From: an uncultured Gemmatimonadales bacterium
GTDB lineage: Bacteria > Gemmatimonadota > Gemmatimonadetes > Gemmatimonadales > GWC2-71-9
Assembly (NCBI GenBank): GCA_963704805.1
Contig: CAVPHS010000001.1
Location: forward strand, 1,234,496-1,298,495
Direction: 5' to 3'
DNA length: 64,000 bases
Positions 36,667 through 51,709 of this stretch are shown piece by piece. The translations under genes and the position numbers were made by a program. The number at the start of each line of letters is the position of its first letter. The first letter of the stretch is position 1. Under the pieces are notes generated by a model that saw only the letters and a list, made by a program, of their open reading frames with translations, was not told the DNA's origin and did no database searches.

Positions 36667-36696
36667 AGTAGTGAACCTGAAACAGAGGAGCGAGTC

Positions 36697-36915
36697 ATGG
36701 CATTCACGAAACCTGTTCGCCGGGCGATGTGGCATTTGGACCGGCGACTCCGCGCGTACAAGAGAGCCGTCACGCAGCACCTCGCCAACCTGGACGCGAC
36801 GATCGCCGAGAACGGAGGCGAAGCAGATGCCGAGATCGTCGCTGGCTGGACGGCTCCGGAGTTTCTGGCCGGGTTCAAGGCGCTGCGCGATGCCCTGAAA
36901 AACTTCCCGGCCTGA
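36697..36915 (+). CDS. hypothetical protein (72 aa)
   Basis: The ORF is preceded by GAGGAG. No motif was recognised. Confidence 0.35.
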   Translation: MAFTKPVRRAMWHLDRRLRAYKRAVTQHLANLDATIAENGGEADAEIVAGWTAPEFLAGFKALRDALKNFPA

Positions 36916-36922
36916 GCATTGT

Positions 36923-37252
36923 GTGACGAGTGCCGAGCTGGCCGAGCTGACCAAGCTGGTCGCGTTCTGGCGCGAGCAGGCCGCCGCCTACGAACAAGAC
37001 GGCCAGCCCGGCACGGCCTTGCTCCGCAGAGTGGCCACCGAGCTGGACGAGGCGGTGCGGGGCCTCGGCCTGGAGGAGTTGACGGTGGCGCAGGCGGCGG
37101 CGGAGAGCGGTTACAGCGCCTCGCAGCTCCGGCGGCGGTTCCCGGGCCAGCGGACAATCCGCCGGGCGGACCTGCCCCGGAAGGGGCGGCACGGTGGGCC
37201 GGACCTGGCGGGGGCCGTCTTGCGAGGGACCTACCATGGTGGTAGGTTATAG
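36923..37252 (+). CDS. HTH protein, excisionase-like
   Basis: LTVAQAAAESGYSASQLRRRF is present. The gene lies near the integrase. Confidence 0.45.
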   Translation: MTSAELAELTKLVAFWREQAAAYEQDGQPGTALLRRVATELDEAVRGLGLEELTVAQAAAESGYSASQLRRRFPGQRTIRRADLPRKGRHGGPDLAGAVLRGTYHGGRL

Positions 37253-37257
37253 GGACG

Positions 37258-37530
37258 ATGACCCTACAGAATGTTGTCCGCCAAGCGATTGCCGACGCCC
37301 CGCGCTCTTTGCGTTCGTTGCGGGCGTTGGCCAAGGCCGCCGGTATCTCGCACGTCACCCTGATGCGTATTCGCGATGGGGACGAGCCAGCGAGTGCGCG
37401 CGTCGCCGCAAAGCTCGCCCAGGTGCTTGATGCCTGGGCGGCCGAGCACGCGCGCGATGCCGAGAAGTGTGCGCGGTCCTCCTCGCGGATTCGGACGGCG
37501 TTGCGGGGTTCGACAGGGAGGGCAGAATGA
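37258..37530 (+). CDS. HTH DNA-binding protein
   Basis: LRALAKAAGISHVTLMRIRDG is present. It overlaps the integrase start by ATGA. Confidence 0.45.
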   Translation: MTLQNVVRQAIADAPRSLRSLRALAKAAGISHVTLMRIRDGDEPASARVAAKLAQVLDAWAAEHARDAEKCARSSSRIRTALRGSTGRAE

Positions 37531-38819
37531 CCACGACAGCAGCACAGCTCCCCACCGCCAAGACTCGACGCCGCACGCGCTGGTCGTGGTCGGTCGGAGA
37601 GTACGGCGAGCGCGTCCTCGTGTTCGAGGAGCGGAACGGGCGCCTGTACGGCCAGATTCGCGGCCGCCGCGTCGCGCTTGGCCACAAGGACCGCGACCGG
37701 GCGAAGACGTGGGCGAAGGATCAGGAGAAGCAGCTCCGCGACGGGCTCGCGACCGCGGCCGACCCGACGCCGACCGTCGCCAAGGTGTTCGCGGCGTACC
37801 TCGCGGCGCGCGCGGAGCAGGACCTCTCCGCCACGTCGCGGTACGTGGACGAGCGGTGCGGCGGCCGCCTGCCCGATCCCAAGGTGCCCGGCGACGCAGG
37901 CGACCCCGGCCTGTTCGCCCGCGTGCTCGGCGCGGGCCGCGACCTCTCCAAGCTCACGCTCGGCGAGTGGCAGCACTTCATCCGCCAGCGGCTGACCGGC
38001 GCCGTGGACGCGTGGGGCCGGGACGTGCCCGCCCCGGTGACGCCCGAGGACGCGAAGCGGCGACCGGTCCGCGCCCGCACGGTGGAGGCCGACTGCGAGT
38101 GGCTCGCGATTGTCTGCAACTGGGCGACCGAGTGGGAGGACCGCGAGACCGGCCAGCCGCTCCTCCGCGAGCATCCGCTCAAGCGGGAGCGCTTCCGCGA
38201 CGCCGTGCCGCACGAGCAGAACCCGCGTCGGCCGGTCGCGACGCAGGACCGCTACGAGGCCATCGTGGCCAAGGCGGCGACCGTGCACCCGTACCTCGTG
38301 CCTCTGCTCGCCATCGTGAACGGCGCGGGCCGCCGCATCTCCGCGGTGCTCCAGCTTCGCTACGAGGACGTGCGGCTCGCCAAGACGGCGGGCGCGCCCT
38401 ACGGCGCGATTCAGTGGCCGGGGGAGTCGGACAAGATGGGGAAGGCGTGGGCCGCGCCGATCAACGCCGCGGTGCGCGCGACGCTCGACGCAGTGCTCGC
38501 CGCGCGGCCCGGACTCGGCGGGGCGTACCTGTTTCCGTCGCCGATGGACCCGGCGCAGCCGATGGACCGGTGGTTCGCCTCGAAGCTGCTGCGCCGCGCC
38601 GAGCGGCTCGCCAAAGTGCCGAAGCACCACGGCTCACTCTGGCACGCCTACCGGCGGAAGTGGGGCACGGAGCGGAAGCACCTGCCGGTCCAGGACGTGG
38701 CGCAGGCGGGCGGATGGAAAAACACGGCGACGCTGGAGACGATTTACCAGCAGCCCGACGAGGCGACGCTCTACCGCGTCGTGTCCGAGCCAGCCGAATT
38801 GCGGGAAGCGCACGCGTGA
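37527..38819 (+). CDS. tyrosine-type site-specific integrase
   Basis: The C-terminal catalytic region (LWHAYRRKW...GGWKNTATLETIYQQ) is present. The gene ends 131 nt before attR. Confidence 0.85.
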   Translation: MTTTAAQLPTAKTRRRTRWSWSVGEYGERVLVFEERNGRLYGQIRGRRVALGHKDRDRAKTWAKDQEKQLRDGLATAADPTPTVAKVFAAYLAARAEQDLSATSRYVDERCGGRLPDPKVPGDAGDPGLFARVLGAGRDLSKLTLGEWQHFIRQRLTGAVDAWGRDVPAPVTPEDAKRRPVRARTVEADCEWLAIVCNWATEWEDRETGQPLLREHPLKRERFRDAVPHEQNPRRPVATQDRYEAIVAKAATVHPYLVPLLAIVNGAGRRISAVLQLRYEDVRLAKTAGAPYGAIQWPGESDKMGKAWAAPINAAVRATLDAVLAARPGLGGAYLFPSPMDPAQPMDRWFASKLLRRAERLAKVPKHHGSLWHAYRRKWGTERKHLPVQDVAQAGGWKNTATLETIYQQPDEATLYRVVSEPAELREAHA

Positions 38820-38950
38820 GCGCGCTCCGCTATTTCCTCCGCCAAGTCTTGCGCGCATCCTGCGTGTCTAGCGTGCGGCGCGCGCGTATGGCGCGCATCG
38901 TTGAGCACGAACCCGCGCACGATGCGCGAATCCGGCGCCACCGGCGACGG

Positions 38951-38992
38951 ATGGGGTTCAGGGGGTCGCGGGTTCAAATCCCGCCGTCCCGA
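38951..38992 (+). repeat. attR: 42-bp copy of tRNA-Pro positions 32-73
   Basis: It is identical to 26257-26298. Confidence 0.85.
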
Positions 38993-38997
38993 CTCGG

Positions 38998-39027
38998 CCT
39001 CCGCGAAGACGCGGGGGCTTTGTCGTT
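38998..39027 (+). terminator. hairpin plus T-rich tail, likely the ancestral tRNA-Pro terminator (possibly bidirectional with the kinase gene)
   Basis: The sequence reads CCTCCGCG-AAGA-CGCGGGGG followed by CTTTGTCGTT. Confidence 0.5.
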
Positions 39028-39036
39028 CCGGCGACC

Positions 39037-41997
39037 TTAGTCAATCGGTAGCGTAGCCCGAACGATTGTGCCCTGTCCCGGCTCGCTCGTGATGTGCAGA
39101 CTGCCTGCGACGCGATCCGCCCGGGCGCGCATCCCTGCCAAACCAAGGTGCCCGTCGGTCGCCGCCGCCTCGGCGGCGCCCGGAGGCATCCCTCGGCCAT
39201 CATCCCGGACCTGGAGCGTGAGCACGCGCGGCCCGTAGTCGAGCTGAACCTGAATCTTCTGTGCATCCGCATGCTTCAGCGCGTTGAGCACAGCCTCGCG
39301 ACCAATGCGCAGCGCCGTCGTGGCCACCTGCGGCGTGAGCGGCCGACGGTCACCCTGCACCGTGAACTCAAGAGCCACCGGTGCCTGCGCGGTGACCGAA
39401 CGCACGGCTCCCTCAAGGGCCGCCGGCAGATCGTGACCCTCGAGCTCCACCGCGCGCATGTCCCAGATCGAATTCCGGGCGTCTCGCAGCGCGGTATCGG
39501 CCGCGGACAACGCGCCGTCGAGTGCCGCGACTCCCTCCTGCGGCCGCACGGCGATGGTGCGCTGAATCGCGCGCAGCTGAATCGTGATGCCGGTGAACCC
39601 CTGGAGCAGGGTGTCGTGCAGCTCCTGCGCGATCCGAGCCCGCTCCCCCAGCGCAGCTTCGTACTGACCCTTCAGCGTCTCCTGCGCGAGCCGCTGACGC
39701 CGCCGCTGCACCAGCACCGCCGCGGCGGCGCCGAGCACCCCGATCAGGACGACGACACCAATCCGGAACACCAGGGTCTGGTACCAAGCGGGCAGGACAC
39801 GGAAGTGCCAAGCCGCTCCAGTCGCCGCCTCGTTCCAGACCCCGTCACCATTGCTGGCGATCACGCGGAAGCTGTACCGGCCGGGCGCCAGGCTGGTGTA
39901 ATAAGCCCGACGCCGCGTGCCCGCGTCGTGCCACGTCGGATCTTCGCCTTCCAATTGATAGCGGAACTGAACCCGCTCAGGCGTCGACAGCGTAGTCGCC
40001 GTGTAATCGATCTCAAGATTGCGGCTCTCGGGGCGAATGCTTGTTCCGTCTGAAGGCGCAGTCTCTCGGCCATCGATCCGTACCGTCTCGATGAGTACCG
40101 GAGGCGGGACGTTAGGTGGAAGCTCGCGCGGATCGACATTGGCCACGCCACCGTCTGTCGCCACCCAGATTCTGCCGTCCATGGACCGGGTCACCCACTG
40201 ACCGTAGGTCCAGCGTGGGATCATGCCGCCCAGGCCGTCCCGCCGATCAAAAAGGCGATACGGAGCGACATAATCGGAGTCCGACAGGGCACGATCGATC
40301 GCTCCAGGTGGCAGCAGCAGCACGCCGTCGCGGGTCACGATCCACCACGCGCCCGCGTCGTCGGCGGCGATTCCATACACCGACCGCCCCGGCACGCCTT
40401 GGCGCTCCGGCAAGGTTCGGAAGCGGCCGTCCTCGAATCTGCTCAGACCGCCGTCGCCGGAAGCCCAGACCTGGCCGCTGCGATCCTGAAAGAAGGCGCG
40501 GACCTCGCCGAGCGTCATTCCCTGCGCCGGAGTGAACAGGCTCACCTGCCCGTGATCGTAGAGCGCCACACGGTTCGACTGGCCAACCCAGATTCTTCCT
40601 TCGCGGTCACTGAACATCACCGCCGCCTGTCCATGCGCCGGTTGGCCCAGGGGTGCCACCCGAACCAGCCCACTCGGCGTAAAGCGAAGCAACCCCAACT
40701 CCTCATCGAAGAACCAGATGGTTCCCTGCGAGTCAACCGCAACCTCCGCCAGATGCTGCGCATCGCGGCCGCTTAGCGGGACACGGCTGAGGCGCCCTCC
40801 CTGGATTCGGAGTACCTCTTTCGCGTCAACCGACCAGAGGGTCCCGGTGGTATCCTCAGCGAGATTTGTCAGGGCGTCGGGTATGTGGATCGTGTCCCGA
40901 CTGCGAGGGCCAATCCGGATGAGCTCAAACGTGTTGTAAGCGCCGGTCCAGACCGATGAGTCCCGCGTGGCGAAGACGAACCGTTGACGAACTCCACCGG
41001 GCGTAGCGCTCGGTGTGAAGGCGCCTTCCCGGAACCGTTCCAGGCCCCGTGCCGTGCTGACCCAAATGTTGCCCTCATCATCTTCCAGTAGCGCATAGAC
41101 GATGTCGGACAACAGTCCGTCCTTCTCAGTGAAGTGCTCCGCCTCGTGACCGAACTGCTCGATGCGTCGTCCGCGGATCCGGGTCGGATCGAGGACGCGG
41201 CGCAAGCCGTCGCCGAGCGAACCGATCCAGAGACTCCCCTTCTTGTCGATCAGTAGCGTCCAAGCGCCGACTCTCACTTCGGTGATCGGAGCCCGGTCGC
41301 CGAACCGGGGAATGGTGTGCGCGGATCGGTAGAACTCCGCCATCCAGATCGCGCCATCCCTGGCCTGGGCAAACACCGTCTGCGCCGATTGCGCCAAGAG
41401 TCGCACGCCCGGATCGATGAACCGGTGTGCGTTCGTCGGGAGATAGACCACCCGGTCTTCAGTCTCCACCCACAGCGTATCCCCACGGTCGAACCACACG
41501 CCGTCGGCCTTGGTACCACGAAAGCCCAATTCGCGGCCGAACGATTCCCATCTGCCGGCGACGAAGCGGGACAAACCCCGCGCAGTCCCGGCCACCAGCA
41601 TGCCAGTGCTGGACTCGGTCAGTTGCATCGTCGGTGGCAGATCGTCATCTGCGCCATAGGAGCTCAGGTGAGCCCCGTTGAGGTGGCTGACCACACCACT
41701 GGCCCACGCGATCCAGAGACTGCCGTCACGCGCCCCCAGCAGGGTCCGGACTCCGCCAATCGGAATCGTGTCGCCACTCGGCGCTGAGAACGGGACGAAC
41801 CGGACCCCATCGAAGCGGACTAAGCCGGACACAGTTCCCAGCCAGAGGTAGCCGTCCCCCGTTTGCGCCAGGGCGCGGATCTCGGTAGGCGCGCCGTCGT
41901 CTGGCGTCCACCGCGTGTGTACCAGCTCGTGGATGGGACGAGGCGTGGAGTCGATCGCGGACAGCGCGATCAGCAGAGTTGAGAGGCAGGGCCACAT
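39037..41997 (-). CDS. sensor histidine kinase with a periplasmic two-component-regulator-propeller/Y_Y_Y region, HisKA_3 and HATPase
   Basis: Repeated beta-propeller motifs (G.LW.GT..GL) are present, along with one TM helix, an H-box (IAQELHDTLLQ) and a C-terminal ATPase domain. Confidence 0.85.
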   Translation of the reverse strand: MWPCLSTLLIALSAIDSTPRPIHELVHTRWTPDDGAPTEIRALAQTGDGYLWLGTVSGLVRFDGVRFVPFSAPSGDTIPIGGVRTLLGARDGSLWIAWASGVVSHLNGAHLSSYGADDDLPPTMQLTESSTGMLVAGTARGLSRFVAGRWESFGRELGFRGTKADGVWFDRGDTLWVETEDRVVYLPTNAHRFIDPGVRLLAQSAQTVFAQARDGAIWMAEFYRSAHTIPRFGDRAPITEVRVGAWTLLIDKKGSLWIGSLGDGLRRVLDPTRIRGRRIEQFGHEAEHFTEKDGLLSDIVYALLEDDEGNIWVSTARGLERFREGAFTPSATPGGVRQRFVFATRDSSVWTGAYNTFELIRIGPRSRDTIHIPDALTNLAEDTTGTLWSVDAKEVLRIQGGRLSRVPLSGRDAQHLAEVAVDSQGTIWFFDEELGLLRFTPSGLVRVAPLGQPAHGQAAVMFSDREGRIWVGQSNRVALYDHGQVSLFTPAQGMTLGEVRAFFQDRSGQVWASGDGGLSRFEDGRFRTLPERQGVPGRSVYGIAADDAGAWWIVTRDGVLLLPPGAIDRALSDSDYVAPYRLFDRRDGLGGMIPRWTYGQWVTRSMDGRIWVATDGGVANVDPRELPPNVPPPVLIETVRIDGRETAPSDGTSIRPESRNLEIDYTATTLSTPERVQFRYQLEGEDPTWHDAGTRRRAYYTSLAPGRYSFRVIASNGDGVWNEAATGAAWHFRVLPAWYQTLVFRIGVVVLIGVLGAAAAVLVQRRRQRLAQETLKGQYEAALGERARIAQELHDTLLQGFTGITIQLRAIQRTIAVRPQEGVAALDGALSAADTALRDARNSIWDMRAVELEGHDLPAALEGAVRSVTAQAPVALEFTVQGDRRPLTPQVATTALRIGREAVLNALKHADAQKIQVQLDYGPRVLTLQVRDDGRGMPPGAAEAAATDGHLGLAGMRARADRVAGSLHITSEPGQGTIVRATLPID

Positions 41998-42076
41998 GGA
42001 AAGGAGATGATGAAGGGCAGGGGCCTTCCTCGGAAGAGGTATGCCGCCGCGCGCAGCACCTGATACTGTTCTCTGC

Positions 42077-42703
42077 ATGGTTACGGCGATTCGAATCCTC
42101 ACCGTAGACGATCATCCCCTGATGCGGGCGGGAGTCGCGTCCTTCCTCGCGACCGAGCCCGGGTTGCAGGTGGTGGCGGAGGCCGCCAATGGCGAGGAAG
42201 CCCTCGAGAAGTATCGTGAGCTCCGTCCGGATCTTGTTCTCATGGACCTCAGCATGCCGGTCATGGATGGCCTGGAGGCGACCCGAGCGATCCTCGAGGA
42301 GTTTCCGGACGCGCGCATCATCGTGCTGACCACCTATGCGGGGGACGAAGACGTTCACCGGGCCCTCGATGCCGGCGCATTGGGCTACCTGCTCAAGGAC
42401 ATGTTGGTCGCCGATATCCTCAAAGTCATCCGATCGGTCGTCGCCGGGCGCCGCGGTATTCCGCCGGCCATCGCCGCAACGTTGGCCCAGCACACGCCGC
42501 GCGTCGCGCTGACGCCGCGAGAGACGGAAGTGATCTCGCTGATCGCGACGGGACTCACCAACGCGCAAGTCGCGCAACGCATCGGACGGACCGAGGAAAC
42601 GGTCAAGGTTCACGTGAAGAACATCCTGCAGAAGCTCGACGCGCAGGACCGCACCGAAGCGGTCACGCAAGCGGTGCGGCGCGGATTCATTCGCCTCTCG
42701 TAA
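42077..42703 (+). CDS. NarL/FixJ-type response regulator (REC plus LuxR HTH)
   Basis: ILTVDDHPLMR, DLVLMDLSMP and LTPRETEVISLIATGLTNAQVA are present. It is divergent from the kinase gene. Confidence 0.9.
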   Translation: MVTAIRILTVDDHPLMRAGVASFLATEPGLQVVAEAANGEEALEKYRELRPDLVLMDLSMPVMDGLEATRAILEEFPDARIIVLTTYAGDEDVHRALDAGALGYLLKDMLVADILKVIRSVVAGRRGIPPAIAATLAQHTPRVALTPRETEVISLIATGLTNAQVAQRIGRTEETVKVHVKNILQKLDAQDRTEAVTQAVRRGFIRLS

Positions 42704-42851
42704 CTCCTCCCTCTAGCGAGTTAGGAAAAGACTACTGGCGTTGGGGACGCGACGTGACCCTCCCGGGCGCTAGCGTGTGGGTACGACAACGGTCGATGCC
42801 GGTCACCGACTCGCGGCGGCTCGCGCTCGACCCTCGCTCCTGGAGACTCGT

Positions 42852-43625
42852 ATGACACAGCAGGCACTCATGGCGGCGTTGGCGCTGGGCGCCGCGGCCC
42901 CGGTCCACGGCCAGACACAGCAGTCGACGCAGCGTCCCACGATCGTGCTCGTGCATGGCGGCTTCGTGGACGGTTCCGGCTGGGAAGGTGTGTTCAAGCG
43001 TCTGCGGAAGAACGGCTACAACGTCACCATCGTTCAGAACCCCACCACCTCTTTGAGCGACGACGTTGCCGCCACGCGTCAGGCCATCGCGGCGAGTAGC
43101 GGTTCGGTGATCCTGGTTGGTCATTCGTACGGCGGCGTCGTGATCACTGAAGCCGGCAACGACCCCAAGGTCGTGGGACTCGTCTACATCGCGGCCTTCG
43201 CCCCCGACAACGGGGAATCGGTCGCGAAGTTGATCGCGAATCCCGCGCCGGGCGCGCCCGTGCCTCCGATTCTGCCGCCACAGGACGGATTCCTCTTCCT
43301 CGACAAGGCCAAGTTCGCGGCGTCGTTTGCCGCTGATGTCGATGCGCCAACGGCGGAGTTCATGGCGCAATCCCAGGTGCCTTGGGGCCTCAATGCCCTC
43401 AACGGCGAGGTCACGCAAGCATCCTGGCGGACCAAGCCGAGCTGGTACCTCGTCGCCACTGACGATCGGATGATTCCGCCGGCAGCTCAGCGCGCGATGT
43501 CCAAGCGGGCAGGTTCGACCGTGATCGAGTCGCCGGGCAGTCATGCAGTCTACGTGTCGCGTCCGGCGTCGGTTGCTGCGCTGATCGAACAGGCTGCGAG
43601 CAAGATCGAAACGGCGTCTCGCTGA
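42852..43625 (+). CDS. secreted alpha/beta hydrolase
   Basis: A signal peptide, VLVHGG and the nucleophile elbow GHSYGG are present. Confidence 0.8.
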   Translation: MTQQALMAALALGAAAPVHGQTQQSTQRPTIVLVHGGFVDGSGWEGVFKRLRKNGYNVTIVQNPTTSLSDDVAATRQAIAASSGSVILVGHSYGGVVITEAGNDPKVVGLVYIAAFAPDNGESVAKLIANPAPGAPVPPILPPQDGFLFLDKAKFAASFAADVDAPTAEFMAQSQVPWGLNALNGEVTQASWRTKPSWYLVATDDRMIPPAAQRAMSKRAGSTVIESPGSHAVYVSRPASVAALIEQAASKIETASR

Positions 43626-43632
43626 ACTCCAA

Positions 43633-43643
43633 CGCCGTCCCGA
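43633..43643 (+). repeat. degenerate core: last 11 nt of tRNA-Pro (CGCCGTCCCGA)
   Basis: It is followed by ATGAGTGAAAGATCAAGCCTCAC, homologous to the sequence after element A. Confidence 0.6.
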
Positions 43644-43660
43644 ATGAGTGAAAGATCAAG

Positions 43661-43694
43661 CCTCACTGCAATTGTCGCGGTGGGGCTTCTTCTT
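43661..43694 (+). terminator. rho-independent-type terminator
   Basis: The sequence reads CCTCACTGC-AATTGTC-GCGGTGGGG followed by CTTCTTCTT. Confidence 0.55.
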
Positions 43695-43712
43695 GCGCAT
43701 AGCTCGCGCTTG

Positions 43713-43837
43713 TTTGCCGTAATGTTTGCCGGTCCATCGCTACCGATGCGTGCCAATACGGTCCTTGGACGCACGTACGTGCCAATAAAACAACGGCCCC
43801 GCATGGAGGCCGTTGCATTCAAATCCCGCCGTCCCGA
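43713..43837 (+). repeat. conserved ~126-nt element, copy A, ending in the 20-nt tRNA-Pro 3' end
   Basis: It starts at TTTGCCGTAATGTTTGCCGG and ends at TTCAAATCCCGCCGTCCCGA. It aligns with copies B-E. Confidence 0.85.
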
Positions 43838-43853
43838 CTGAGTGAAGATCAAG

Positions 43854-43888
43854 CCTCACAGTGGTTTTCGACTGTGGGGCTTTTTCTT
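43854..43888 (+). terminator. rho-independent-type terminator after element A
   Basis: The sequence reads CCTCACAGT-GGTTTTCG-ACTGTGGGG followed by CTTTTTCTT. Confidence 0.6.
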
Positions 43889-44093
43889 CGGTTGCGACCC
43901 CCTGATGACCTTGCATGGGGTCGCAAGCTGCGAGCGGCTGAAGGTCTGGCGCTGTTGTGAATCTTGTTGTGACTGCATGGCTCTAAGCGACTGCTCAGGC
44001 CGACTCAAAACTCTGCCCTCAACCCGCGCACAATCCCATGCTATTCTAACGACTTCAATGGTCACGTCCCCCGCGCCCCTCGCGAGTACAGCG

Positions 44094-45236
44094 ATGGAGA
44101 AACGCCCCCTACGGTTCGACCGCAACGAGCTCGCCGGCGCCTTTGGCGACCTCGGCACCGATCTGCCCCTCATCGTGGGCATGGTCCTCGCCGCCAAGCT
44201 CGACAGCGCCAGTGTCCTCATCGCCTACGGCGTCATGCAGCTGCTCACCGGGTTCGTCTATCGCCTCCCGATGCCGGTCCAGCCGCTCAAAGCCGTCGCG
44301 GCGCTCGTCATCACGCAGCACATCGCCGCCAACACTATCTACGGGGCGGGTCTCGCGATCGGTCTCGCGATGCTGCTCATCACCGCGTTCCGACTGATCG
44401 ATTGGCTTGCCTGGGCGATTCCCAAGAGCGTCGTCCGCGGCATCCAGCTCGGGCTCGGCATCCAGCTCGCGTCGCTCGCGCTGCGCGAATACGTCGGCGC
44501 CGATCGGCTTCCTGGCTATGTCTTCGCCGCAATCGCGTTCGCGATCGTGATCGCGCTGATCCGGAACCGGCGTCTGCCCGCAGCGCTCCCGGTCGTGGCG
44601 CTGGGCGTCGTGTATGCGCTGGTGTTCAAACTCCCGCCCGCCGCGCTCGTTCAGAGCGTCGGCCTCGACCTTCCCCGGCTCCACGTCCCAACCGTAGCCG
44701 ACGTGGCGACAGGATTCGTCATACTGGCTCTGCCACAGCTGCCCCTGTCGCTCGGCAACTCGATCCTCGCGACGCAGCAGATCGTCAAAGACCTGTATCC
44801 CGACGTCCCGCTCCCTGTGCGCAAGATCGGGTACACCTACGCCCTGATGAATCTCGTAAGTCCGTTCTTGAGTGGCGTCCCGGTGTGCCACGGATCGGGT
44901 GGGTTCGCCGGGCACTACGCATTCGGCGGGCGCACCGGCGGCTCCGTCGTCATTTACGGTGCGCTGTTTATGGTGCTCGGGCTGTTCTTCAGCAGCGGAT
45001 TTGCGCGCGTCGTGAACGTGTTCCCGCTGCCGATGCTAGGCGTGCTGCTCCTGTTCGAGGGTCTCGCGCTGATCGTGTTGGTGCGCGACCTCGCCGCCGA
45101 GCGGTCGGACTTTTTCATCGCGGCTCTGGTCGCGCTGTGTGCCGCCTTCCTGCCGTATGGCTACGTCGTCGGACTCGTGATCGGGGCGCCGCTCGCCCAT
45201 CTCGCTCGACGCGGAACTGTCATATCGGTCGGATAA
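44094..45236 (+). CDS. MOT1/MOT2-like putative molybdate (sulfate-family) transporter
   Basis: ELAGAFGDLGTDLPLIV and LPMPVQPLKAVAALVI resemble the MFS_MOT1 signature as I recall it. The start is 44094 or 44058. Confidence 0.65.
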   Translation: MEKRPLRFDRNELAGAFGDLGTDLPLIVGMVLAAKLDSASVLIAYGVMQLLTGFVYRLPMPVQPLKAVAALVITQHIAANTIYGAGLAIGLAMLLITAFRLIDWLAWAIPKSVVRGIQLGLGIQLASLALREYVGADRLPGYVFAAIAFAIVIALIRNRRLPAALPVVALGVVYALVFKLPPAALVQSVGLDLPRLHVPTVADVATGFVILALPQLPLSLGNSILATQQIVKDLYPDVPLPVRKIGYTYALMNLVSPFLSGVPVCHGSGGFAGHYAFGGRTGGSVVIYGALFMVLGLFFSSGFARVVNVFPLPMLGVLLLFEGLALIVLVRDLAAERSDFFIAALVALCAAFLPYGYVVGLVIGAPLAHLARRGTVISVG

Positions 45237-45259
45237 CGCGCGTCTCATCCCGACGGGGC

Positions 45260-45385
45260 TTTGCCGTAATGTTTGCCGGTCCATGCCCGCCAATGCCTAC
45301 CGATGCGGTCATTCCGCGCACATATGTGCCAATAAAAACAACGGCCCCGCATGGGAGCCGTTGAATTCAAATCCCGCCGTCCCGA
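45260..45385 (+). repeat. conserved ~126-nt element, copy B
   Basis: It has the same boundaries and the same 3' 20-mer as copy A. Confidence 0.85.
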
Positions 45386-45394
45386 TTAGCGAAG

Positions 45395-47560
45395 TCATTG
45401 CTGTGTGTGCACCGCCTCGACCGGCGGCAGGCCGTTCAACTCGCGCGCCGCCCCCACCACATCCCCGATCCCGGCGAAGTCCACGGCGAGCATGGTCGGC
45501 AGCATGTGCCGCTCGCGCTGGCACTGCCGCGCCCGCCGCACCAGCACGTCCCGCTGATTCACGATCTCGGCGTTGCTCGGTCGCGGGGTGGGCGTGGTCT
45601 CGATCCAGTGGTTAATGAGGAACAGCTCGCCTGTGGGCGTGCCCCGGTTGGGCCGGCAGTTGAACTCCTGCGGCGTGTGGAACGTGTAGGGCGTTTCCGT
45701 CACCAGCCCGCCCATCGAGTGGTGATACCACGGCACGTCGCCCACGTCGGTGTCGCCCAGCACGACCACACGGCCGCCGCTGGCGATCATCTCGCCCAGG
45801 GTGGGCCACGTGGGTCCCAGCGGCCCGCGATACACGAAGTCGATCAGCCCGCTCTCCTCGAACGCGGCCGCGATGTCCGCCGGCGGCGCGTAGTCCTCGA
45901 ACGAGATGATGACGACTTCGCCGGGGTGCAGGACGAGGAACTCCACGAACGTGCGCAGCGTGGGCACCATGGGAATGGCGCCGAGCTCGCAGAACCCGTG
46001 GCAGAAGTACCCGGCGCTCGCCCCGGGCGCACCCGTCAGCCGCTCGCGCACGCGCATTCCCGCCTGCCACGCCGCGTTGCCGATGACCTCGGCGATCTTG
46101 CGGTTGGCGTGCGGAACGGCGTCGAAGTCGGTGCGCACGCGGTCGCCCATGGCGTTGCCCCGATAGGGGTCGAGCAGGAACGCGCGCACACCGCGGTCGA
46201 GCAGTGGCCCGATGTCCAAGTCCTGATTGGGGAACAGCCAGGTCGGGTTGGTGGCCGCGCCCATCGCGTTGTGGGCGGCGGGGAACACGACCCGGTTGAA
46301 CCGCCGCGCGCACAGCTCGACGGCGCCGTTGCATGCGTCACTCTCGGTTGCGGCCACCGCTTGTGGCGGGCGCAGGCGGAGGAGTACGGCCGCCGCGCCG
46401 ACGCCCAGCGCCAGCAGCGCGACCACGCGCACCCCCACCAGGACGGGAGTCGCCACGCGCGTCTCGCCAGCCGCACCCCCCCCCATGGTCGTGGGCAGGT
46501 ACGGCTGCACGAGGCGTCGCACCTCCGCCAGACTCAGCAGGAGGAGCGCCGCGCCGGCGGCGACGACCACGACCGTCCCCGCGGCGCTCGGCGCGAGAAA
46601 CGCCGCCAGACCGGCGATGCCGAGCCCGAGCAGGCGACCGGCCTCCGCCCAGGGGTTCTGGCGCCGCTGAGTCACGAAGGTCCAGATACGGTCACGCAGC
46701 GCCGCGGGGTCCACCGAGTCGCCGGGCTGGGCGATCAGCGCGACGGTCGCGCCGACGAGCGCCACCACGATACCCGCGATGCGCAGCGGGCCGAAGAACG
46801 CATCCCACAGGCCTGCCGCGGCGTCCGAGGCGGCGTGATCGGCGATCACGGACGACACGAGGACGCGACCCGCCGGGACGGTGAGTGCGAGGACCGCGCC
46901 CACGGTGGCGATCCCCACGCCGGCCGTGAGCAGCGCCGAGCGCTTGTGTGGCGACAGCACGACCGCTGCCGCGAGGACGAGGATCGCGGCCACCAAGCCG
47001 AGCCGGCCGAACGGCCGCAACGCGCCCGCGATTCCGAGCCCCGCGCGGGCGGCGCCCCTCCACGCTGCACCGGGGCGCGACTGCAGCACGGGCTGGAGCC
47101 GCGGCGGCAGCCGATCCGCGGCGCCCGCGCCGACGTTCTTCAGGGCCTCGTGGATCAGGACTCGCGCGTCGGGGAGCGCGAGCAAGATGTTCTCGGTGGT
47201 GGATGAGGTCACGGCGCGGTGGGCCTGCCGCACGGCGGGGCGCACCAGCGCGCCGAACGGCTTGGAGGTCACCACGCCGCGCGTCACCACGACGAGGATC
47301 GGTCGCAGCGCGGTGAGGTCGGGCTTCTGCGCGATGACGGCATCAGTCATCTTGAGGGCGACGAACTCGCCCACGCGCGGATCCTGGAGACTGGCGCTCA
47401 CCCTATCGGCGAACGTGTCCTCGCGCACCAGCACCCGGCCCACGTACATCATCAGGAGGCTGATGGTCAGCACCGTCAGGCCGGCGCCCGCGAGGAGTCC
47501 GGCGATTCGTGATTTCCAGGTATGCCCGCGTGGTTGGTCAGCCATCTTCCCTAGCCCCAA
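45395..47560 (-). CDS. multi-TM protein with a C-terminal PI-PLC-X-like phosphodiesterase domain
   Basis: The N-terminal two thirds are hydrophobic. The C-terminal part contains FNRVVFPAAHNAMGAATNP...RAFLLDPY. Confidence 0.55.
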   Translation of the reverse strand: MGLGKMADQPRGHTWKSRIAGLLAGAGLTVLTISLLMMYVGRVLVREDTFADRVSASLQDPRVGEFVALKMTDAVIAQKPDLTALRPILVVVTRGVVTSKPFGALVRPAVRQAHRAVTSSTTENILLALPDARVLIHEALKNVGAGAADRLPPRLQPVLQSRPGAAWRGAARAGLGIAGALRPFGRLGLVAAILVLAAAVVLSPHKRSALLTAGVGIATVGAVLALTVPAGRVLVSSVIADHAASDAAAGLWDAFFGPLRIAGIVVALVGATVALIAQPGDSVDPAALRDRIWTFVTQRRQNPWAEAGRLLGLGIAGLAAFLAPSAAGTVVVVAAGAALLLLSLAEVRRLVQPYLPTTMGGGAAGETRVATPVLVGVRVVALLALGVGAAAVLLRLRPPQAVAATESDACNGAVELCARRFNRVVFPAAHNAMGAATNPTWLFPNQDLDIGPLLDRGVRAFLLDPYRGNAMGDRVRTDFDAVPHANRKIAEVIGNAAWQAGMRVRERLTGAPGASAGYFCHGFCELGAIPMVPTLRTFVEFLVLHPGEVVIISFEDYAPPADIAAAFEESGLIDFVYRGPLGPTWPTLGEMIASGGRVVVLGDTDVGDVPWYHHSMGGLVTETPYTFHTPQEFNCRPNRGTPTGELFLINHWIETTPTPRPSNAEIVNQRDVLVRRARQCQRERHMLPTMLAVDFAGIGDVVGAARELNGLPPVEAVHTQQ

Positions 47561-48045
47561 GCAGGCTGGCCGAGCGCCAGCGGCATGCAGCCTACGTACT
47601 TTCCCGGCACCCGCACGTAGCGGAGCGCCTTCGTCATTCCGGTCTCGGACGAGAAGTACGCGCCGAGTGCGAGATCACGCACCGGCTCGAACCACGCTTG
47701 CCTGCCAACCGAGCGCACGAACGTCTCACGATCCGCACGCGAGAGCTCGAGGAAGTTCTCGGCGCGAAAGCGCGCGAGCCCCTCACGGACCATGCGCTGC
47801 TCCGCCGGCTTGTAGCAGTCGCTGAGAATCAAGTTCATCGCCGCGCCCGTGCCCGCCGCCTTCGCGCCTGGTGAGCCCCCCCCGGCAGTCGTGGGGAGCA
47901 AGGTGTCGGCGATTTCCTCCGCCAGCACCTGATCCTCGTCCGAGAGCACGCGTGCGCTCGAAGCGCGGCGCGTGCGACATGCCGCCAGGATGCCACTGGA
48001 CGCGATGAGCGCGGCCCCCGCCTTGAGGGCGTCGCGTCGATTCAC
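47551..48045 (-). CDS. gluconate 2-dehydrogenase subunit 3 family protein (Tat signal)
   Basis: MNRRDALKAGAALIASSGILAAC is present. It overlaps the GMC oxidoreductase gene. Confidence 0.7.
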   Translation of the reverse strand: MNRRDALKAGAALIASSGILAACRTRRASSARVLSDEDQVLAEEIADTLLPTTAGGGSPGAKAAGTGAAMNLILSDCYKPAEQRMVREGLARFRAENFLELSRADRETFVRSVGRQAWFEPVRDLALGAYFSSETGMTKALRYVRVPGKYVGCMPLALGQPAWG

Positions 48046-49739
48046 AGATTCCTCCGCTTCAGCTCAGCCACGGCGTGGTTCGCCGCGCGCGCGGTCAACG
48101 CCATATAAAGGATGGAAGGACTCTGGTTCCCGGTCGACGTCATGCACGCGCCGTCGGTGACGAACACGTTCGGGCAGCCATGCACCTGGTTCCATTGATT
48201 GAGGACAGACGCCCTCGGATCCTTCCCCATGCGCGCGCCGCCCATCTCGTGGATGTCGAGCCCCGGCGCCCATCCCTTGTCGTGTGTTTCGACGTCTTTG
48301 CACCCCGCGGCCTCGAGCATCTCGGCTGCCTGCGTGCGCCAGTCCGCGATCATCCGCGCGTCGTTGTCGTCGTAGTCCACGTTCATCACCAGCAAGGGGA
48401 TCCCCCATTGGTCCTTCTTCGTCTCATGGAGACGCACGTGGTTCGACTCCTTGGGGATCGTCTCACCCTGCATATACATGTAGATCCCCCACGGCCCCGG
48501 CTCGGTCTGAGCGTTCTTGAATGCTTCGCCCGCTAGGGTCTCGGTCGCCACTCCGCGCTCGCGATAGGCGCCGGTGAACGTGGTATAACCGCCAACGAAG
48601 TCGGTGTCCTGCCTCCCGAGGTTCCGGAAGTTCACGAGGATGCACTCCGTCGGGTTGCGGCCGAAGAAGTACTTGTCGGTGTACCCGTCGATGCGTCCGT
48701 GTCCTTCGACGCGATAGTTGTGGTGCATCACGTACTTGCCGAGCAGCCCGCTGTCGTTGCCGAGCCCCTGGGGGAAGCGCGACGACGTAGAGTTGAGCAG
48801 CACGAGCGTGGAGTTGAGCGCTGACCCGTTCACGAAAATGATACGCGCGGCGAACTCCAACTGTTCGTGCGTATTGGCATCGACGACGCGTACGCCGGAC
48901 GCCTTGCCGGACTTGTCGTCGTACACAATCGAGTGCACGACCGAGTGCGGCCGCAGCGTGAGGTTGCCCGTCTTCGCTGCCCAGGGCAGCGTCGATGAGT
49001 TGGAGCTAAAGTATCCCCCGTACGGGCACCCGCGCATGCAGAGATTGCGCGCCTGACAGCTGCCCCGCCCCTGCTGGAGGTGGATCGGCTTCGGCTGCGA
49101 GAGGTGCGCCCAGCGTCCCTGCACGACCCACCGGTTCTTGTACTTCGCGTGAATCGCCTGACTCATGTGCTTCTCGACGCAGTTGAAGTCGAAGGGCGGG
49201 AGGAAGTCGCCGTCCGGCATCGCGTCGAGATGGTCGTAGTTGCCGCAGACTCCGATGAACCGCTCGACATGCGTGTACCACGGCGCGATGTCGTCGTACG
49301 TGATCGGCCAGTTCATCCCGTAGCCGAGCTTCTCGGGGGCGACGAACTCGTACTTGCTCCAGCGCTGCGTCGCTCGTCCCCAGATGAGCGACTTCCCGCC
49401 GACCTGATAACCGCGGATCCAGTCGAAGGGCTTTTCCTGCACGTACGGGTGGTCGGCGTCCTTCACGAAGAAATGGGCGGTGTCTTCGCCGTAGCCGGCC
49501 GCCTTACTGATGAGCGGATTCTCGGTCGTCAGCTTGCGCGGGTTGTAGCCCCGGTGCGGCAGATCCCATGGTGCCATGTTCGCCGTGGGGTAATCCTTGA
49601 TGTGCTGCACGTCGCGGCCGCGCTCGAGCACGAGGGTCTTGAGGCCGTGGTCGCAAAGCTCCTTCGCGGCCCAACCCCCGGAAATTCCGGAGCCGATGAC
49701 GATGGCGTCGTACGTTCGATCGAGTTTTGTCATGCCCAT
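48042..49739 (-). CDS. GMC family FAD oxidoreductase
   Basis: YDAIVIGSGISGGWAAKEL is present, and the C-terminal region is GMC-like. Confidence 0.9.
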   Translation of the reverse strand: MGMTKLDRTYDAIVIGSGISGGWAAKELCDHGLKTLVLERGRDVQHIKDYPTANMAPWDLPHRGYNPRKLTTENPLISKAAGYGEDTAHFFVKDADHPYVQEKPFDWIRGYQVGGKSLIWGRATQRWSKYEFVAPEKLGYGMNWPITYDDIAPWYTHVERFIGVCGNYDHLDAMPDGDFLPPFDFNCVEKHMSQAIHAKYKNRWVVQGRWAHLSQPKPIHLQQGRGSCQARNLCMRGCPYGGYFSSNSSTLPWAAKTGNLTLRPHSVVHSIVYDDKSGKASGVRVVDANTHEQLEFAARIIFVNGSALNSTLVLLNSTSSRFPQGLGNDSGLLGKYVMHHNYRVEGHGRIDGYTDKYFFGRNPTECILVNFRNLGRQDTDFVGGYTTFTGAYRERGVATETLAGEAFKNAQTEPGPWGIYMYMQGETIPKESNHVRLHETKKDQWGIPLLVMNVDYDDNDARMIADWRTQAAEMLEAAGCKDVETHDKGWAPGLDIHEMGGARMGKDPRASVLNQWNQVHGCPNVFVTDGACMTSTGNQSPSILYMALTARAANHAVAELKRRNL

Positions 49740-49809
49740 AAAGTATCAGCAGCCCGTTTTTTCTAAGTTGTCCTAGCCCCCGCCAACCACTCCTACTCGA
49801 CCATGTAGC

Positions 49810-50718
49810 CTACTCCGGCCCGGCGCGGGCCACGAGTGCCAGCGGCACCTTGCGTAGTCCCTTCCAGGCTCTCGCCTGACCGGTCGAGTCGACGATCGTC
49901 AGTTGCGCCGAGATTCCGCCGTCGAGCAGCATCGCATGCTGTGCGCCAAGCTCGCCCATCACCGCCGCCATCTCGACAACCGTGAGCCCGAACGGCAGAC
50001 GGTCTGCGCCGGGGATTGGAACGTCGAGCCGTGTCATGGCGACGAGCAAGCGCCCCTGACGATCGAGACCGACCGCCAGTCGCGCGTCGCGATGCGTGAC
50101 ATTGATGGTCCTGTTGCGCAGCGCTGCCGGCAACGCGCCGTCGCCCGCGAGCAGAGCGGGGTACGATTGAAACGCGAAGCGCACGTCTCCCAGGGCTCGG
50201 CCGCGCCAGGTCGAAACATCGTCACCGTCCACCCACACGAGCCGGCCGTCCGCAAGGCCGATCAGTGCCGATGAAAGCGGTCCGTCACCAGGGGGGAGAC
50301 GCTCGTGGCCATCCATCACCACCCAACCCCACGGCAGCCGGTCCACGAACATCCCGGCGTTGAGGGCGAGGGCCGCGTCGCCCGCCCGATCGATCGTCCA
50401 GGCGGGCCGATCGCGCTCCATGCGCCACACTAAATCAAAGGAGACCGCCCGAAGATCGATGCGCGCGAGCACGAGCGTGAGTGCGTGCGCTTCGCCTTGC
50501 CCCTCGATCGGCAGCGTGGCCCACTCGACGCCCGGCTGCCCGGGCTGCCAGGTGACCAGTCCGCTGAGCGTTGCATCCGCCGCAGTCCAGCGCGCGGGCG
50601 CGCGCGACGCGCGCCACACCACGCGCCACGACCCGGAGGGTAGCCGAACGGCCAGCGTGGCGTCGTCGCGACGAGCCGTGGGGGACCCCGCAGCCGCCGC
50701 GAACAGCGCGACCGCCAT
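49810..50718 (-). CDS. phosphodiester glycosidase family (DUF2233-like) secreted protein
   Basis: ALALNAGMF...GWVVMDG...MLLDGGISAQL is present. Confidence 0.55.
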   Translation of the reverse strand: MAVALFAAAAGSPTARRDDATLAVRLPSGSWRVVWRASRAPARWTAADATLSGLVTWQPGQPGVEWATLPIEGQGEAHALTLVLARIDLRAVSFDLVWRMERDRPAWTIDRAGDAALALNAGMFVDRLPWGWVVMDGHERLPPGDGPLSSALIGLADGRLVWVDGDDVSTWRGRALGDVRFAFQSYPALLAGDGALPAALRNRTINVTHRDARLAVGLDRQGRLLVAMTRLDVPIPGADRLPFGLTVVEMAAVMGELGAQHAMLLDGGISAQLTIVDSTGQARAWKGLRKVPLALVARAGPE

Positions 50719-50757
50719 GACGCTGGCCGCCCGGAGTCTTCTAATAACGGTGTCCGA

Positions 50758-51660: not shown

Positions 51661-51709
51661 AGCGATCCTTCGGTGGAGGTGGTGGTGATGGATATTCTCT
51701 CTCCCGCTC

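What the first reader, a model, noticed from the sequence alone, without database searches (positions are those of the whole stretch)
43633..43888. Minimal ~200-bp unit: degenerate core plus terminator, then a full element A plus a second, compensatorily diverged terminator
Directly after the hydrolase stop comes CGCCGTCCCGA-ATGAGTGAAAGATCAAGCCTCAC and the hairpin CCTCACTGC/GCGGTGGGG with a T-rich tail (43633-43694). About 18 nt later element A begins. After its core comes CTGAGTGAAGATCAAGCCTCAC and the hairpin CCTCACAGT/ACTGTGGGG with a T-run (43838-43888). The two post-core segments are clearly homologous over about 33 nt. The terminator stems then differ at several positions while both remain fully paired. 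The interval between the two cores (about 194 bp) therefore contains nothing but a terminator arm and the 105-nt arm. This is what an empty or minimal unit of the array would look like, a circular permutation of a putative attP. It also argues that the terminator is a selected part of the module rather than a recent duplication.
Basis: seen in the sequence. Interest (0 to 1): 0.6.

Follow-up and report, generated by a model that had tools for sequence, protein, structure and literature searches.

The report
Empty unit in tRNA-anchored cassette array
The two look-alike segments are neighbouring junctions in a chain of small gene cassettes with no integrase of their own, inserted one after another into the 3' end of a proline tRNA gene of a soil Gemmatimonadales bacterium; the ~200 bp between them is a cassette without cargo, an unusual variant of a known kind of site-specific insertion.

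Summary
The two post-core segments are homologous: local alignment score 31, against 6.5±1.4 for shuffles. Both hairpins fold strongly (z -5.3 and -6.5) and differ by compensatory changes.

The window holds a tandem array. A prophage-like island with the window's only integrase comes first. At least six cassettes without integrase follow, each bounded by the tRNA 3' repeat.

Each junction is a module: a ~125-nt conserved arm with the core ("element A"), then a terminator. I found 167 element A copies in 145 Gemmatimonadales contigs, each next to different cargo. No tyrosine recombinase lay nearby.

The same cassette has up to eight different right-hand neighbours, and synteny breaks at the core. 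The terminator family covaries (96.5% paired, 0/500 shuffles). It also follows the intact tRNA directly in other genomes, so it is a selected part of the module.

The 194-bp interval has no cargo. Its left core is cut to 11 nt and lacks the T-loop, so it is probably a fossil. Orthologous cassettes elsewhere carry a different spacer at this position.

The closest published parallels are cis-mobilizable elements and the Dehalococcoides ssrA islands. The recombinase was not identified.

The parts
26225..26298 (+). Intact tRNA-Pro(GGG), with no encoded CCA. It is the primary attachment site, and its last 20 nt are the repeated 'core'.
   Evidence: ARAGORN; Rfam RF00005, 64.5 bits; sequence.
26299..38992 (+). 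Island 1, a prophage-like integrative element. It is bounded by a perfect 42-nt direct repeat of the tRNA 3' half (26257-26298 and 38951-38992). It carries the window's only integrase (about 37527-38819), an AAA_25 (RepA-like) protein and an HTH/IrrE regulator.
   Evidence: Repeat family D5; Pfam. Homologous integrases always sit just upstream of the same arm and tRNA-Pro fragment.
38993..43632 (.). Cassette holding a histidine kinase (-), a LuxR-type response regulator and an alpha/beta hydrolase (42777-43625). It starts with a terminator at 38993-39020.
   Evidence: Pfam; fold. An orthologous cassette at 87-88% nt identity occurs in L093, L132, L134 and L145; L152 carries the same post-hydrolase spacer.
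43633..43643 (+). Truncated core: the right-hand 11 nt of the 20-nt tRNA-derived repeat, joined 7 nt after the hydrolase stop codon. The T-loop part TTCAAATCC is absent.
   Evidence: The same truncation point is seen in L081 and in a 20-nt-insert variant in four loci.
43644..43694 (+). Terminator 1, a type-2 post-core module: a conserved trailer ATGAGTGAAAGATCAAG, a hairpin at 43658-43688 and a T-rich tail. It serves as the terminator of the response regulator-hydrolase operon.
   Evidence: Fold -27.9 kcal/mol, z -5.3; alignment; family covariation.
43695..43712 (+). Left extension of element A (GCGCATAGCTCGCGCTTG). It resembles TTCCTAGTTCGCGTTTG upstream of element A at 55352 and in the orthologous hydrolase cassettes.
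43713..43817 (+). Element A arm, read as an attP P-arm. It contains direct repeats TTTGCCG at 43713 and 43725, a CCAAT(G/A)CGGTC box, the palindrome GCACGTACGTGC (43771-43782), and the hairpin CAACGGCCCC/GGAGGCCGTTG (43790-43816). On the - strand that hairpin is an intrinsic terminator.
   Evidence: Repeat family D1; alignments; 167 copies by nhmmer; terminator scan; hairpin variants with compensatory changes.
43818..43837 (+). Full 20-nt core TTCAAATCCCGCCGTCCCGA: the tRNA T-loop, the 3' strand of the T-stem, the 3' strand of the acceptor stem and the discriminator base. It is the exchange site.
   Evidence: Synteny breakpoints map here.
43838..43892 (+). Terminator 2, a type-2 post-core module belonging to the next cassette (MOT1): trailer CTGAGTGAAGATCAAG, hairpin at 43851-43882 and a T-run.
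   Evidence: Fold -31.2 kcal/mol, z -6.5; terminator scan. Its closest relatives are L096_9699 (88%) and others.
43838..45385 (+). Cassette with a MOT1-family molybdate transporter (about 44094-45236). It ends with element A and core at 45260-45385.
   Evidence: Pfam PF16983.
45386..57782 (.). Four more cassettes bounded by cores at 52026-52045, 53169-53187, 55475-55494 and 57763-57782. Cargo: a GMC oxidoreductase cluster (-); an FG-GAP protein; HSP20, BON and PsiE; a radical SAM enzyme (-). None has a recombinase.

Best explanation
The region is two consecutive attachment-site junctions in a tandem array of small integrative cassettes that have no integrase of their own. The array sits at the 3' end of tRNA-Pro(GGG) in a Gemmatimonadales genome.

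Each cassette, seen as a circle, would carry one composite recombination site. That site has three parts:
- A ~105-nt sequence-conserved arm (element A), with direct repeats and a hairpin.
- The last 20 nt of the tRNA.
- A conserved trailer followed by an intrinsic terminator.

A site-specific recombinase acting in trans exchanges strands inside the 20-nt core. It is most likely a tyrosine integrase. This step is inferred; the enzyme was not found. Insertion at the tRNA rebuilds the tRNA 3' end and gives it a new trailer and terminator. Repeated insertion and excision at any core builds and reshuffles the array.

The module also insulates neighbouring cassettes. The post-core hairpin stops + strand transcripts, and the element A hairpin stops - strand transcripts.

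The 194-bp interval is a unit that holds only the two halves of such a site and no cargo. Its left boundary is a novel joint: the 3' end of the hydrolase gene fused to the right-hand 11 nt of a core. An aberrant or secondary-site event most likely made this joint, so the unit is now fixed. Terminator 1 simply serves as the terminator of the hydrolase operon.
For: Shown:
- The core equals the tRNA-Pro(GGG) 3' end. Eight same-strand copies delimit the cassettes.
- The cargo genes contain no recombinase.
- Element A occurs 167 times in 145 Gemmatimonadales contigs, and 165 copies are oriented like the core. The core lies 110-116 nt from the arm start in 96 of 127 arms. Identity outside a short variable stretch is about 90%, while the cargo is very diverse.
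- Arrays begin at the intact tRNA in L006, L109, L117, L122, L142 and L151. All cores in an array point the same way.
- Core-to-core spacing runs from 99 nt to 8.9 kb, with a median of about 2.3 kb.
- The same GFO-oxidoreductase cassette (89-100% nt identity) has 8 different right neighbours. The response regulator-hydrolase cassette has 4.
- Identity runs through element A and the core and ends within a few nt after the core in 9 of 10 contigs.
- L117 shares the window's right flank but has one cassette. L151 shares the left flank but has a different array.
- The post-core terminator family shows 96.5% paired cells, 30 double-change cells, and 0 of 500 shuffles reaching this. It directly follows the intact tRNA in L006, L117 and L151.
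- The 60 nt after cores fold more strongly than controls: median -25.9 against -17.7 kcal/mol, p = 1e-21.
- Term1 and term2 are not each other's closest relatives.

Inferred: the recombinase, the exact crossover point, and how the truncated joint arose.
Against: - No cognate recombinase was found. There was none near the 165 + strand element A copies in 781 kb, by hmmsearch and hhalign with one integrase-family profile. I had no positive control for distant tyrosine recombinases or for serine recombinases.
- The arms of the one integrase-bearing island in the window are unrelated to element A.
- No circular form or empty attB was observed.
- In L077 and L132 the variable part of element A differs although the cassette is the same. 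Some exchange therefore happens inside the module, as homologous recombination would produce.
- The terminator-plus-element-A empty unit is unique to this window.
- In five related contigs the hydrolase is followed by a different spacer. The unit could therefore be a local rearrangement product rather than a cassette that was ever mobile.
Confidence: 0.7

Rival explanations
1. Cassette shuffling happens by homologous recombination alone. In this view the conserved ~190-bp junction modules are portable homology blocks. Cassettes taken up by transformation, or exchanged within the genome, are swapped by double crossover, and no dedicated site-specific recombinase exists.
For: No recombinase lies in cis in 781 kb. 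The modules are about 90% identical over more than 100 nt. L077 and L132 show exchange inside element A.
Against: Breakpoints pile up at the 20-nt core in 9 of 10 contigs instead of spreading over the homology block. The repeat is exactly the tRNA 3' end starting at the T-loop, which is the signature of integrase attB sites. Homologous recombination does not explain how the first copy arrives at a tRNA, why all copies share one orientation, or why novel joints recur at one nucleotide.
Confidence: 0.13
2. The two segments are a local tandem duplication of core plus terminator, for example by slippage or unequal crossing-over, that later diverged. In this view there was never a separate unit.
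For: The two copies are only 194 bp apart and share 11 nt of core plus about 23 nt of trailer.
Against: Of 44 family members, 36 from other contigs are closer to term2 than term1 is. Term1's own best matches are also elsewhere. The stems belong to different subclasses (CACYGC/GCGGTG against CACAGT/ACTGTG) that both occur in other genomes. Element A lies between the copies and has a 94% match in another contig.
Confidence: 0.04
3. Element A plus core is a functional RNA or a 3' UTR element, for example a tRNA-like processing signal or an sRNA attached to many operons, and not a recombination site.
For: It has a conserved hairpin with compensatory variants and ends in a tRNA 3' sequence. It lies downstream of many operons.
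Against: There is no Rfam family at gathering threshold, only a 22-bit chance hit. The whole-element fold is not better than shuffles, with z from -0.5 to -1.4. Conservation is at the sequence level and includes direct repeats, as in protein-binding arms. The element occurs after genes on either strand. Copies occur only in one-directional arrays downstream of tRNA-Pro, and synteny breaks at the core.
Confidence: 0.04
4. The cassettes are decayed remnants of once-complete integrative elements that each lost its integrase. They are fixed, and the array is a graveyard rather than a working system.
For: Truncated and interrupted cores exist. The mini-unit's left site is defective. Tandem remnants of this kind are described at tRNA sites in other phyla.
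Against: None of the 165 + strand copies retains an integrase or a fragment of one next to element A. Independent decay should leave some. Element A stays about 90% conserved while the cargo differs completely. The same cassette sits next to many different neighbours.
Confidence: 0.09

Closest known systems
Cis-mobilizable elements (CIMEs) and tandem accretion at att sites; Dehalococcoides ssrA genomic islands (PMC3146451)
   Same: Both form tandem islands downstream of a tRNA or tmRNA gene, each bounded by a ~20-bp direct repeat of the RNA gene's 3' end, with insertion in the T-loop region. Both have a short conserved motif upstream of the repeat. In Dehalococcoides many islands (15 in that study) lack any integration module and are thought to move with, or by means of, neighbouring elements. 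An integrase-bearing element sits in tandem at the head of the array here.
   Different: Here none of the 165 + strand copies has an integrase. The conserved site is much longer (about 125 nt of arm and core, plus about 50 nt of terminator). Units are smaller (median about 2.3 kb). The integrase of the neighbouring island has unrelated arms. The Dehalococcoides enzyme is a serine recombinase; here the enzyme is unknown.
Tycheposons of Prochlorococcus (bioRxiv 10.1101/2020.12.28.424599)
   Same: Both involve cargo-carrying elements that integrate at tRNA genes. Successive integrations push older elements outward, and partial tRNAs are scattered through the island.
   Different: Tycheposons are defined by their own tyrosine recombinase and replication genes. 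The elements here carry neither, and they share a standard non-coding arm instead.
Integrons (IntI, attI, attC cassette arrays)
   Same: Both are one-directional arrays of small cassettes that encode no recombinase. Each cassette carries a standard recombination site at its 3' end, cargo is highly variable, and cargo-less cassettes are known. The site is about 125 nt long, similar in length to the Vibrio cholerae repeats (this comparison is from my own knowledge).
   Different: There is no IntI: the window's integrase matches no NCBIfam model and only PF00589 weakly. No integrase lies next to the primary site. Element A does not fold into an attC-like imperfect hairpin. The primary site is a tRNA 3' end, not an attI. 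Conservation is of sequence rather than of structure.
Lambda-type attP with arm-type sites, and tRNA-gene attB sites in the T-loop sublocation (Williams 2002 classification, from my own knowledge)
   Same: The identity block starts at the T-loop and runs to the end of the tRNA, so the gene is rebuilt on insertion. A ~100-nt arm with direct repeats (TTTGCCG-N5-TTTGCCG) lies at the distance expected for arm-type binding sites. Verrucomicrobial elements with the same core carry a different repeat (GTGACAAAACGTGACAAA) at the same distance.
   Different: No integrase or excisionase gene is linked to the site. Binding of any protein is untested.

Membership tests
Integrative elements at tRNA genes in tandem array (accretion; cis-mobilizable elements) | Units are bounded by direct repeats of the 3' end of a tRNA or tmRNA gene, with an intact gene at one end of the array. 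| tested here: met
   tRNA-Pro(GGG) lies at 26225-26298. Eight same-strand copies of its last 19-20 nt are present, and one further copy of 11 nt. The same layout occurs in L006, L109, L117, L122, L142 and L151.
Integrative elements at tRNA genes in tandem array (accretion; cis-mobilizable elements) | Unit content differs between related genomes at the same chromosomal site, with breakpoints at the repeats. | tested here: met
   L117 shares the right flank and has 1 cassette; L151 shares the left flank and has a different array. One cassette has 8 different right neighbours. Breaks fall at the core in 9 of 10 contigs.
Integrative elements at tRNA genes in tandem array (accretion; cis-mobilizable elements) | The units themselves lack integration and transfer genes (the CIME criterion). 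| tested here: met
   Pfam annotation of the window cassettes shows cargo only. No tyrosine recombinase was found in 145 loci. Two ORFs (721 aa and 300 aa) have no Pfam match.
Integrative elements at tRNA genes in tandem array (accretion; cis-mobilizable elements) | Functional attL and attR sites are recombined by an integrase supplied by a neighbouring or resident element; excision as a circle can be demonstrated. | not testable with these tools
   This needs PCR or read evidence for circles, or recombination assays. The neighbouring island's integrase has different arms, so the helper is unidentified.
Integron | An IntI-type integrase (tyrosine recombinase with the IntI-specific insertion) is encoded next to the primary site attI. 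| tested here: not met
   The only integrase has no NCBIfam hit and a weak PF00589 hit. It belongs to a 12.7-kb island with its own 42-nt repeats. Arrays in other contigs start at the tRNA with no integrase nearby.
Integron | Cassette sites (attC) are imperfect palindromes that fold as single-stranded hairpins, conserved in structure rather than in sequence. | tested here: not met
   ssDNA folds of five element A copies give z from -0.5 to -1.4 and share only a local 10-bp hairpin. Sequence is about 90% conserved.
Integron | One-directional array of small cassettes without recombinase genes, each with a site at its 3' end. | tested here: met
Rho-independent terminator (the two hairpins) | A G+C-rich stem-loop followed by a T-run, with the stem kept by compensatory changes across homologues. 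| tested here: met
   Folds. The scan calls term2. Twelve pairs are 96.5% paired across 45 distinct copies, 6 pairs show double changes, and 0 of 500 shuffles reach this. Term1's tail (CTTCTTCTT) is weaker and the scan did not call it.

The most novel reading that the evidence does not exclude
Soil Gemmatimonadales may carry a tRNA-anchored gene-capture system that is functionally integron-like. In this reading, an as yet unidentified recombinase encoded elsewhere in the genome recognises a standard ~190-bp cassette-borne site: the element A arm, the last 20 nt of tRNA-Pro, and the trailer and terminator. It inserts, excises and reshuffles hundreds of different small cassettes at the tRNA-Pro(GGG) gene. 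Novel joints at one fixed nucleotide of the core, as at 43633, would be the footprint of how new cargo is captured. The 194-bp unit would then be the bare recombination site of that system.
Probability: 0.3. Interest if true: 0.75.

Novelty: new variant of a known kind. Interest (0 to 1): 0.45.

Why it matters
Tandem islands at tRNA genes are well known. This case is different in scale and uniformity: more than 160 cassettes, all without a recombinase gene, share one long standard attachment module and sit next to different neighbours in different genomes.

That points to a gene-shuffling platform in an abundant but poorly studied soil phylum, working on integron logic with lambda-type sites. 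It also gives a concrete reason why a terminator belongs to an attachment site. Every insertion replaces the trailer and terminator of a tRNA gene that has no encoded CCA, so only cassettes that bring a working replacement are tolerated.

For annotation, the 125-nt element and the 20-nt core are precise markers of cassette boundaries in Gemmatimonadales genomes assembled from metagenomes.

Tried and rejected
- attC-like folding of element A: rejected.
- Rfam match for the region: none above noise.
- Coding potential of the 65-aa ORF that spans the unit: rejected.
- Viral origin: no IMG/VR match to either the arm or the core pattern.
- Island-1 integrase as the obvious partner: its arms share nothing with element A. 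Its P'-type sequence (TTNNCGAAGTC after the core) occurs nowhere else in 165 loci. Its homologues were found in only one (L067) of the 145 element A loci; each of the six homologues whose context I fetched sits at the end of its own phage-like or integrative element next to a tRNA-Pro gene or fragment.
- A motif regex for tyrosine recombinases: too strict, since it missed the window's own integrase. I replaced it with hmmsearch and hhalign.
- Looking for a recurrent recombinase among ORF clusters that recur near element A: the ten largest are cargo by eye (sensor kinases, MarR, dehydrogenases, GroEL, hydrolases, TonB receptors).
- Search for circular contigs: one internal repeat only, uninformative.
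- A crude terminator classifier for all post-core sequences gave low counts (5% against 0.9%). I set it aside in favour of the MFE comparison.
- Source record of the window: look-up returned no DNA.

Full report
**The observation.** CGCCGTCCCGA occurs at 43633 and 43827. The 51 nt that follow each copy align with a single 1-nt gap. The local score is 31, against 6.5±1.4 (maximum 15) for 2000 shuffles and a maximum of 14 against random 51-mers of the window. Both hairpins are strong: -27.9 kcal/mol (z -5.3) and -31.2 kcal/mol (z -6.5). They differ at two pairs by changes on both sides. Between the two cores lie only hairpin 1, an 18-nt stretch and the 105-nt arm. The 65-aa ORF that spans the unit is a chance ORF.

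**What the core is.** ARAGORN and Rfam find one tRNA in the window, tRNA-Pro(GGG) at 26225-26298. The 20 nt TTCAAATCCCGCCGTCCCGA are its T-loop, the 3' strand of the T-stem, the 3' strand of the acceptor stem and the discriminator base. No CCA is encoded. This block, or 19 nt of it, recurs on the same strand ending at 38992, 43837, 45385, 52045, 53187, 55494 and 57782. The copy at 43633 keeps only the right-hand 11 nt.

**The array in the window.**
- The first interval (26299-38992) is a 12.7-kb island bounded by a perfect 42-nt repeat of the tRNA 3' half. It carries the window's only integrase, a RepA-like ATPase and an HTH/IrrE regulator.
- The following intervals hold ordinary cargo and no recombinase. 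The cargo is: a kinase, a response regulator and a hydrolase; a MOT1 transporter; a GMC-oxidoreductase cluster; an FG-GAP protein; HSP20, BON and PsiE; and a radical SAM enzyme.
- Five of the cores are preceded by the ~105-nt "element A".
- The upstream 26 kb of the window also has no recombinase.

**Element A elsewhere.**
- An exact-pattern scan of GTDB genomes found the element A-core junction in 25 contigs, nearly all binned as Gemmatimonadales or Gemmatimonadota. Verrucomicrobial contigs have the same core behind a different arm that carries its own direct repeat.
- An nhmmer profile finds 167 copies in 145 loci, 165 of them in the orientation of the core. In 96 of 127 arms the core lies 110-116 nt from the arm start.
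- Outside a ~30-nt variable stretch the element is about 90% conserved. The first 25 nt are biased by the search pattern.
- Its parts are TTTGCCG-N5-TTTGCCG, a CCAATGCGGTC box, a short palindrome, and a 10-bp hairpin with compensatory variants. The hairpin reads as a - strand terminator.
- The whole element does not fold like an attC and matches no Rfam family.

**Evidence that units are exchanged at the core.**
- Arrays start at the intact tRNA in six other loci, and all cores in an array point the same way.
- Core-to-core spacing (n = 102, including a few chance one-mismatch hits) runs from 99 nt to 8.9 kb, with a median of about 2.3 kb.
- Cargo near element A is very diverse. The recurrent ORF clusters are cargo, not recombinases.
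- A GFO-oxidoreductase cassette at 89-100% nt identity is followed by eight different right neighbours. The response regulator-hydrolase cassette of this window (87-88% identity elsewhere) is followed by four.
- In an alignment of ten GFO-cassette junctions, identity runs through the gene end, element A and the core, and stops within a few bases after the core in nine of them. Element A therefore belongs to the cassette on its left and the post-core sequence to the cassette on its right.
- L117 has the window's right-flank gene (81% aa identity) with one cassette between it and the tRNA, where the window has 31.5 kb. L151 has the window's left-flank genes (89-90% aa identity) and a different array.

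**The terminator.**
- About 65 of 227 cores are followed by the same module, CTGAGTGAAGATCAAGCC-hairpin-GGGGCTTTTTCTT. These include the intact tRNA in L006, L117 and L151.
- In 45 distinct copies the 12-bp stem is 96.5% paired. Six pairs show double changes in 30 cells, and none of 500 shuffles reaches these values. Slid controls fall to 34-57% paired.
- Other post-core types are also hairpins. The 60 nt after cores fold at a median of -25.9 kcal/mol, against -17.7 for controls (p = 1e-21).
- Term2 has 36 family members in other contigs that are closer to it than term1 is. Term1's best matches are also elsewhere. The two are independent members of a family, not a local duplicate.
- My reading is inference: a cassette that inserts at the tRNA replaces its 3' trailer and terminator, so it must bring a working copy.

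**The 194-bp unit itself.**
- Its left site lacks TTCAAATCC, so it should not be a substrate for the recombinase.
- It is the only terminator-plus-element-A unit among the intervals examined. A different cargo-less unit of 99-100 nt (terminator, 45-nt arm, core) recurs in L089, L109, L112 and L134.
- In five contigs with the orthologous hydrolase cassette, the stop codon is followed by ACTACAAGCAATCCCGA, a private hairpin, about 60 nt, the same kind of left extension, and then element A. That spacer occurs nowhere else. The window instead has ACTCCAA|CGCCGTCCCGA followed by terminator 1.
- The same 11-nt truncation point is seen in L081 and flanks a 20-nt insert in four loci. This suggests a cleavage position and an aberrant or secondary-site event. 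I cannot tell whether the window or the relatives show the older state.

**The recombinase.**
- Homologues of the island-1 integrase are common in Gemmatimonadales. In each of the six whose context I examined, the gene sits at the end of its own phage-like or integrative element, next to a tRNA-Pro gene or fragment. For the closest homologues the arm resembles island 1's, and that arm is unrelated to element A.
- The integrase is not an integron integrase and has no close solved relative.
- hmmsearch and hhalign with this family's profile found no tyrosine recombinase among 920 ORFs in the 145 loci (781 kb), apart from fragments in L067. This used one family's profile and does not test for serine recombinases.
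- The enzyme is therefore inferred to act in trans and remains unknown.

**Comparison with known systems.**
- The closest published cases are tandem islands at ssrA in Dehalococcoides. They have 20-bp repeats, T-loop insertion and a conserved motif upstream of the repeat, and 15 islands there lack an integration module and are interpreted as cis-mobilizable elements.
- Successive tRNA integrations with scattered partial tRNAs are described for Prochlorococcus tycheposons.
- The system here differs in four ways: the complete absence of cis integrases, a long standard site, small units and high copy number.
- It shares the logic of integrons but fails their defining features, IntI and a folded attC.
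- I rate it a new variant of a known kind.

Noticed in passing
window 53078-53187: 'Element B': the tRNA 3' half GGGGGTCGCGGGTT is interrupted at the T-loop by about 86 nt and then resumes as TCAAATCCCGCCGTCCCGA. It is conserved at 89-94% in L006 and L027 and is recognisable in L080 and L149. The FG-GAP ORF (52252-53250) reads through it, through the core and through the following terminator.
   Followed up: partly
L109 11162-11280; L134 6871-6988; L112 2885-3002; L089 210-310: Cargo-less units of 99-100 nt lie between two cores. Each has a terminator (CTCGGCCCCCGCC..GGCGGGGGCC), a 45-nt arm and the core. The first ~40 nt also follow the core at window 38993.
   Followed up: partly
L035, L058, L087, L122: An element A variant in which a 20-nt insert (ACTAAAGTACTTCCTTCGGT) splits the core into TTCAAATCCCGC and CGCCGTCCCGA. 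The right-hand boundary is the same as in the truncated core at window 43633.
   Followed up: no
window 131-171, 1124-1167 (-), 62371-62452: A 41-nt G+C-rich palindromic repeat (TCCCCCCTCTCCCGACGGGAGAGGGGGTCAGGGGGTGAGGT) is present as a tandem pair and as dispersed copies. It is also present in L017 after a core. It looks like a REP-type element.
   Followed up: no
window 29716-29768 and 31106-31158: A 53-nt direct repeat (85% identity) inside island 1 flanks two - strand ORFs (29773-31185).
   Followed up: no
L165 5403, 7110, 7784: Downstream of an integrase 44% identical to the window's, three ~40-nt fragments of another tRNA-Pro (core TCAAATCCCGGCGCCCCGA) bound two short units (1.7 and 0.7 kb). 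This is the same kind of tandem build-up at a second tRNA-Pro gene.
   Followed up: partly
L008, L009, L015, L019, L022 (Verrucomicrobia): The same 21-nt core is preceded by a different ~100-nt arm with the direct repeat GTGACAAAACGTGACAAA at the position where element A has TTTGCCG-N5-TTTGCCG.
   Followed up: no
window 45386-45410 versus 26299-26323: The post-core sequence of the GMC-oxidoreductase cassette (TTAGCGAAGTCATTG) resembles that of island 1 (TTGTCGAAGTCGTTG). This type was found in no other locus. It may be a chimeric unit with an island-1-type left end and an element A right end.
   Followed up: partly
window 45395-47560 (-) and 50758-51660 (-): Two cargo ORFs (721 aa and 300 aa, GC3 0.91 and 0.84) have no Pfam match. 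They lie in an operon with gluconate-2-dehydrogenase subunit 3 and a GMC oxidoreductase.
   Followed up: no
L017 (binned as Acidobacteria) and L034 (binned as Rokubacteria): Element A copies sit in contigs binned to other phyla from the same soil study. L034 holds the closest match (94%) to the window's copy at 43713. This could be mis-binning or transfer between phyla.
   Followed up: no
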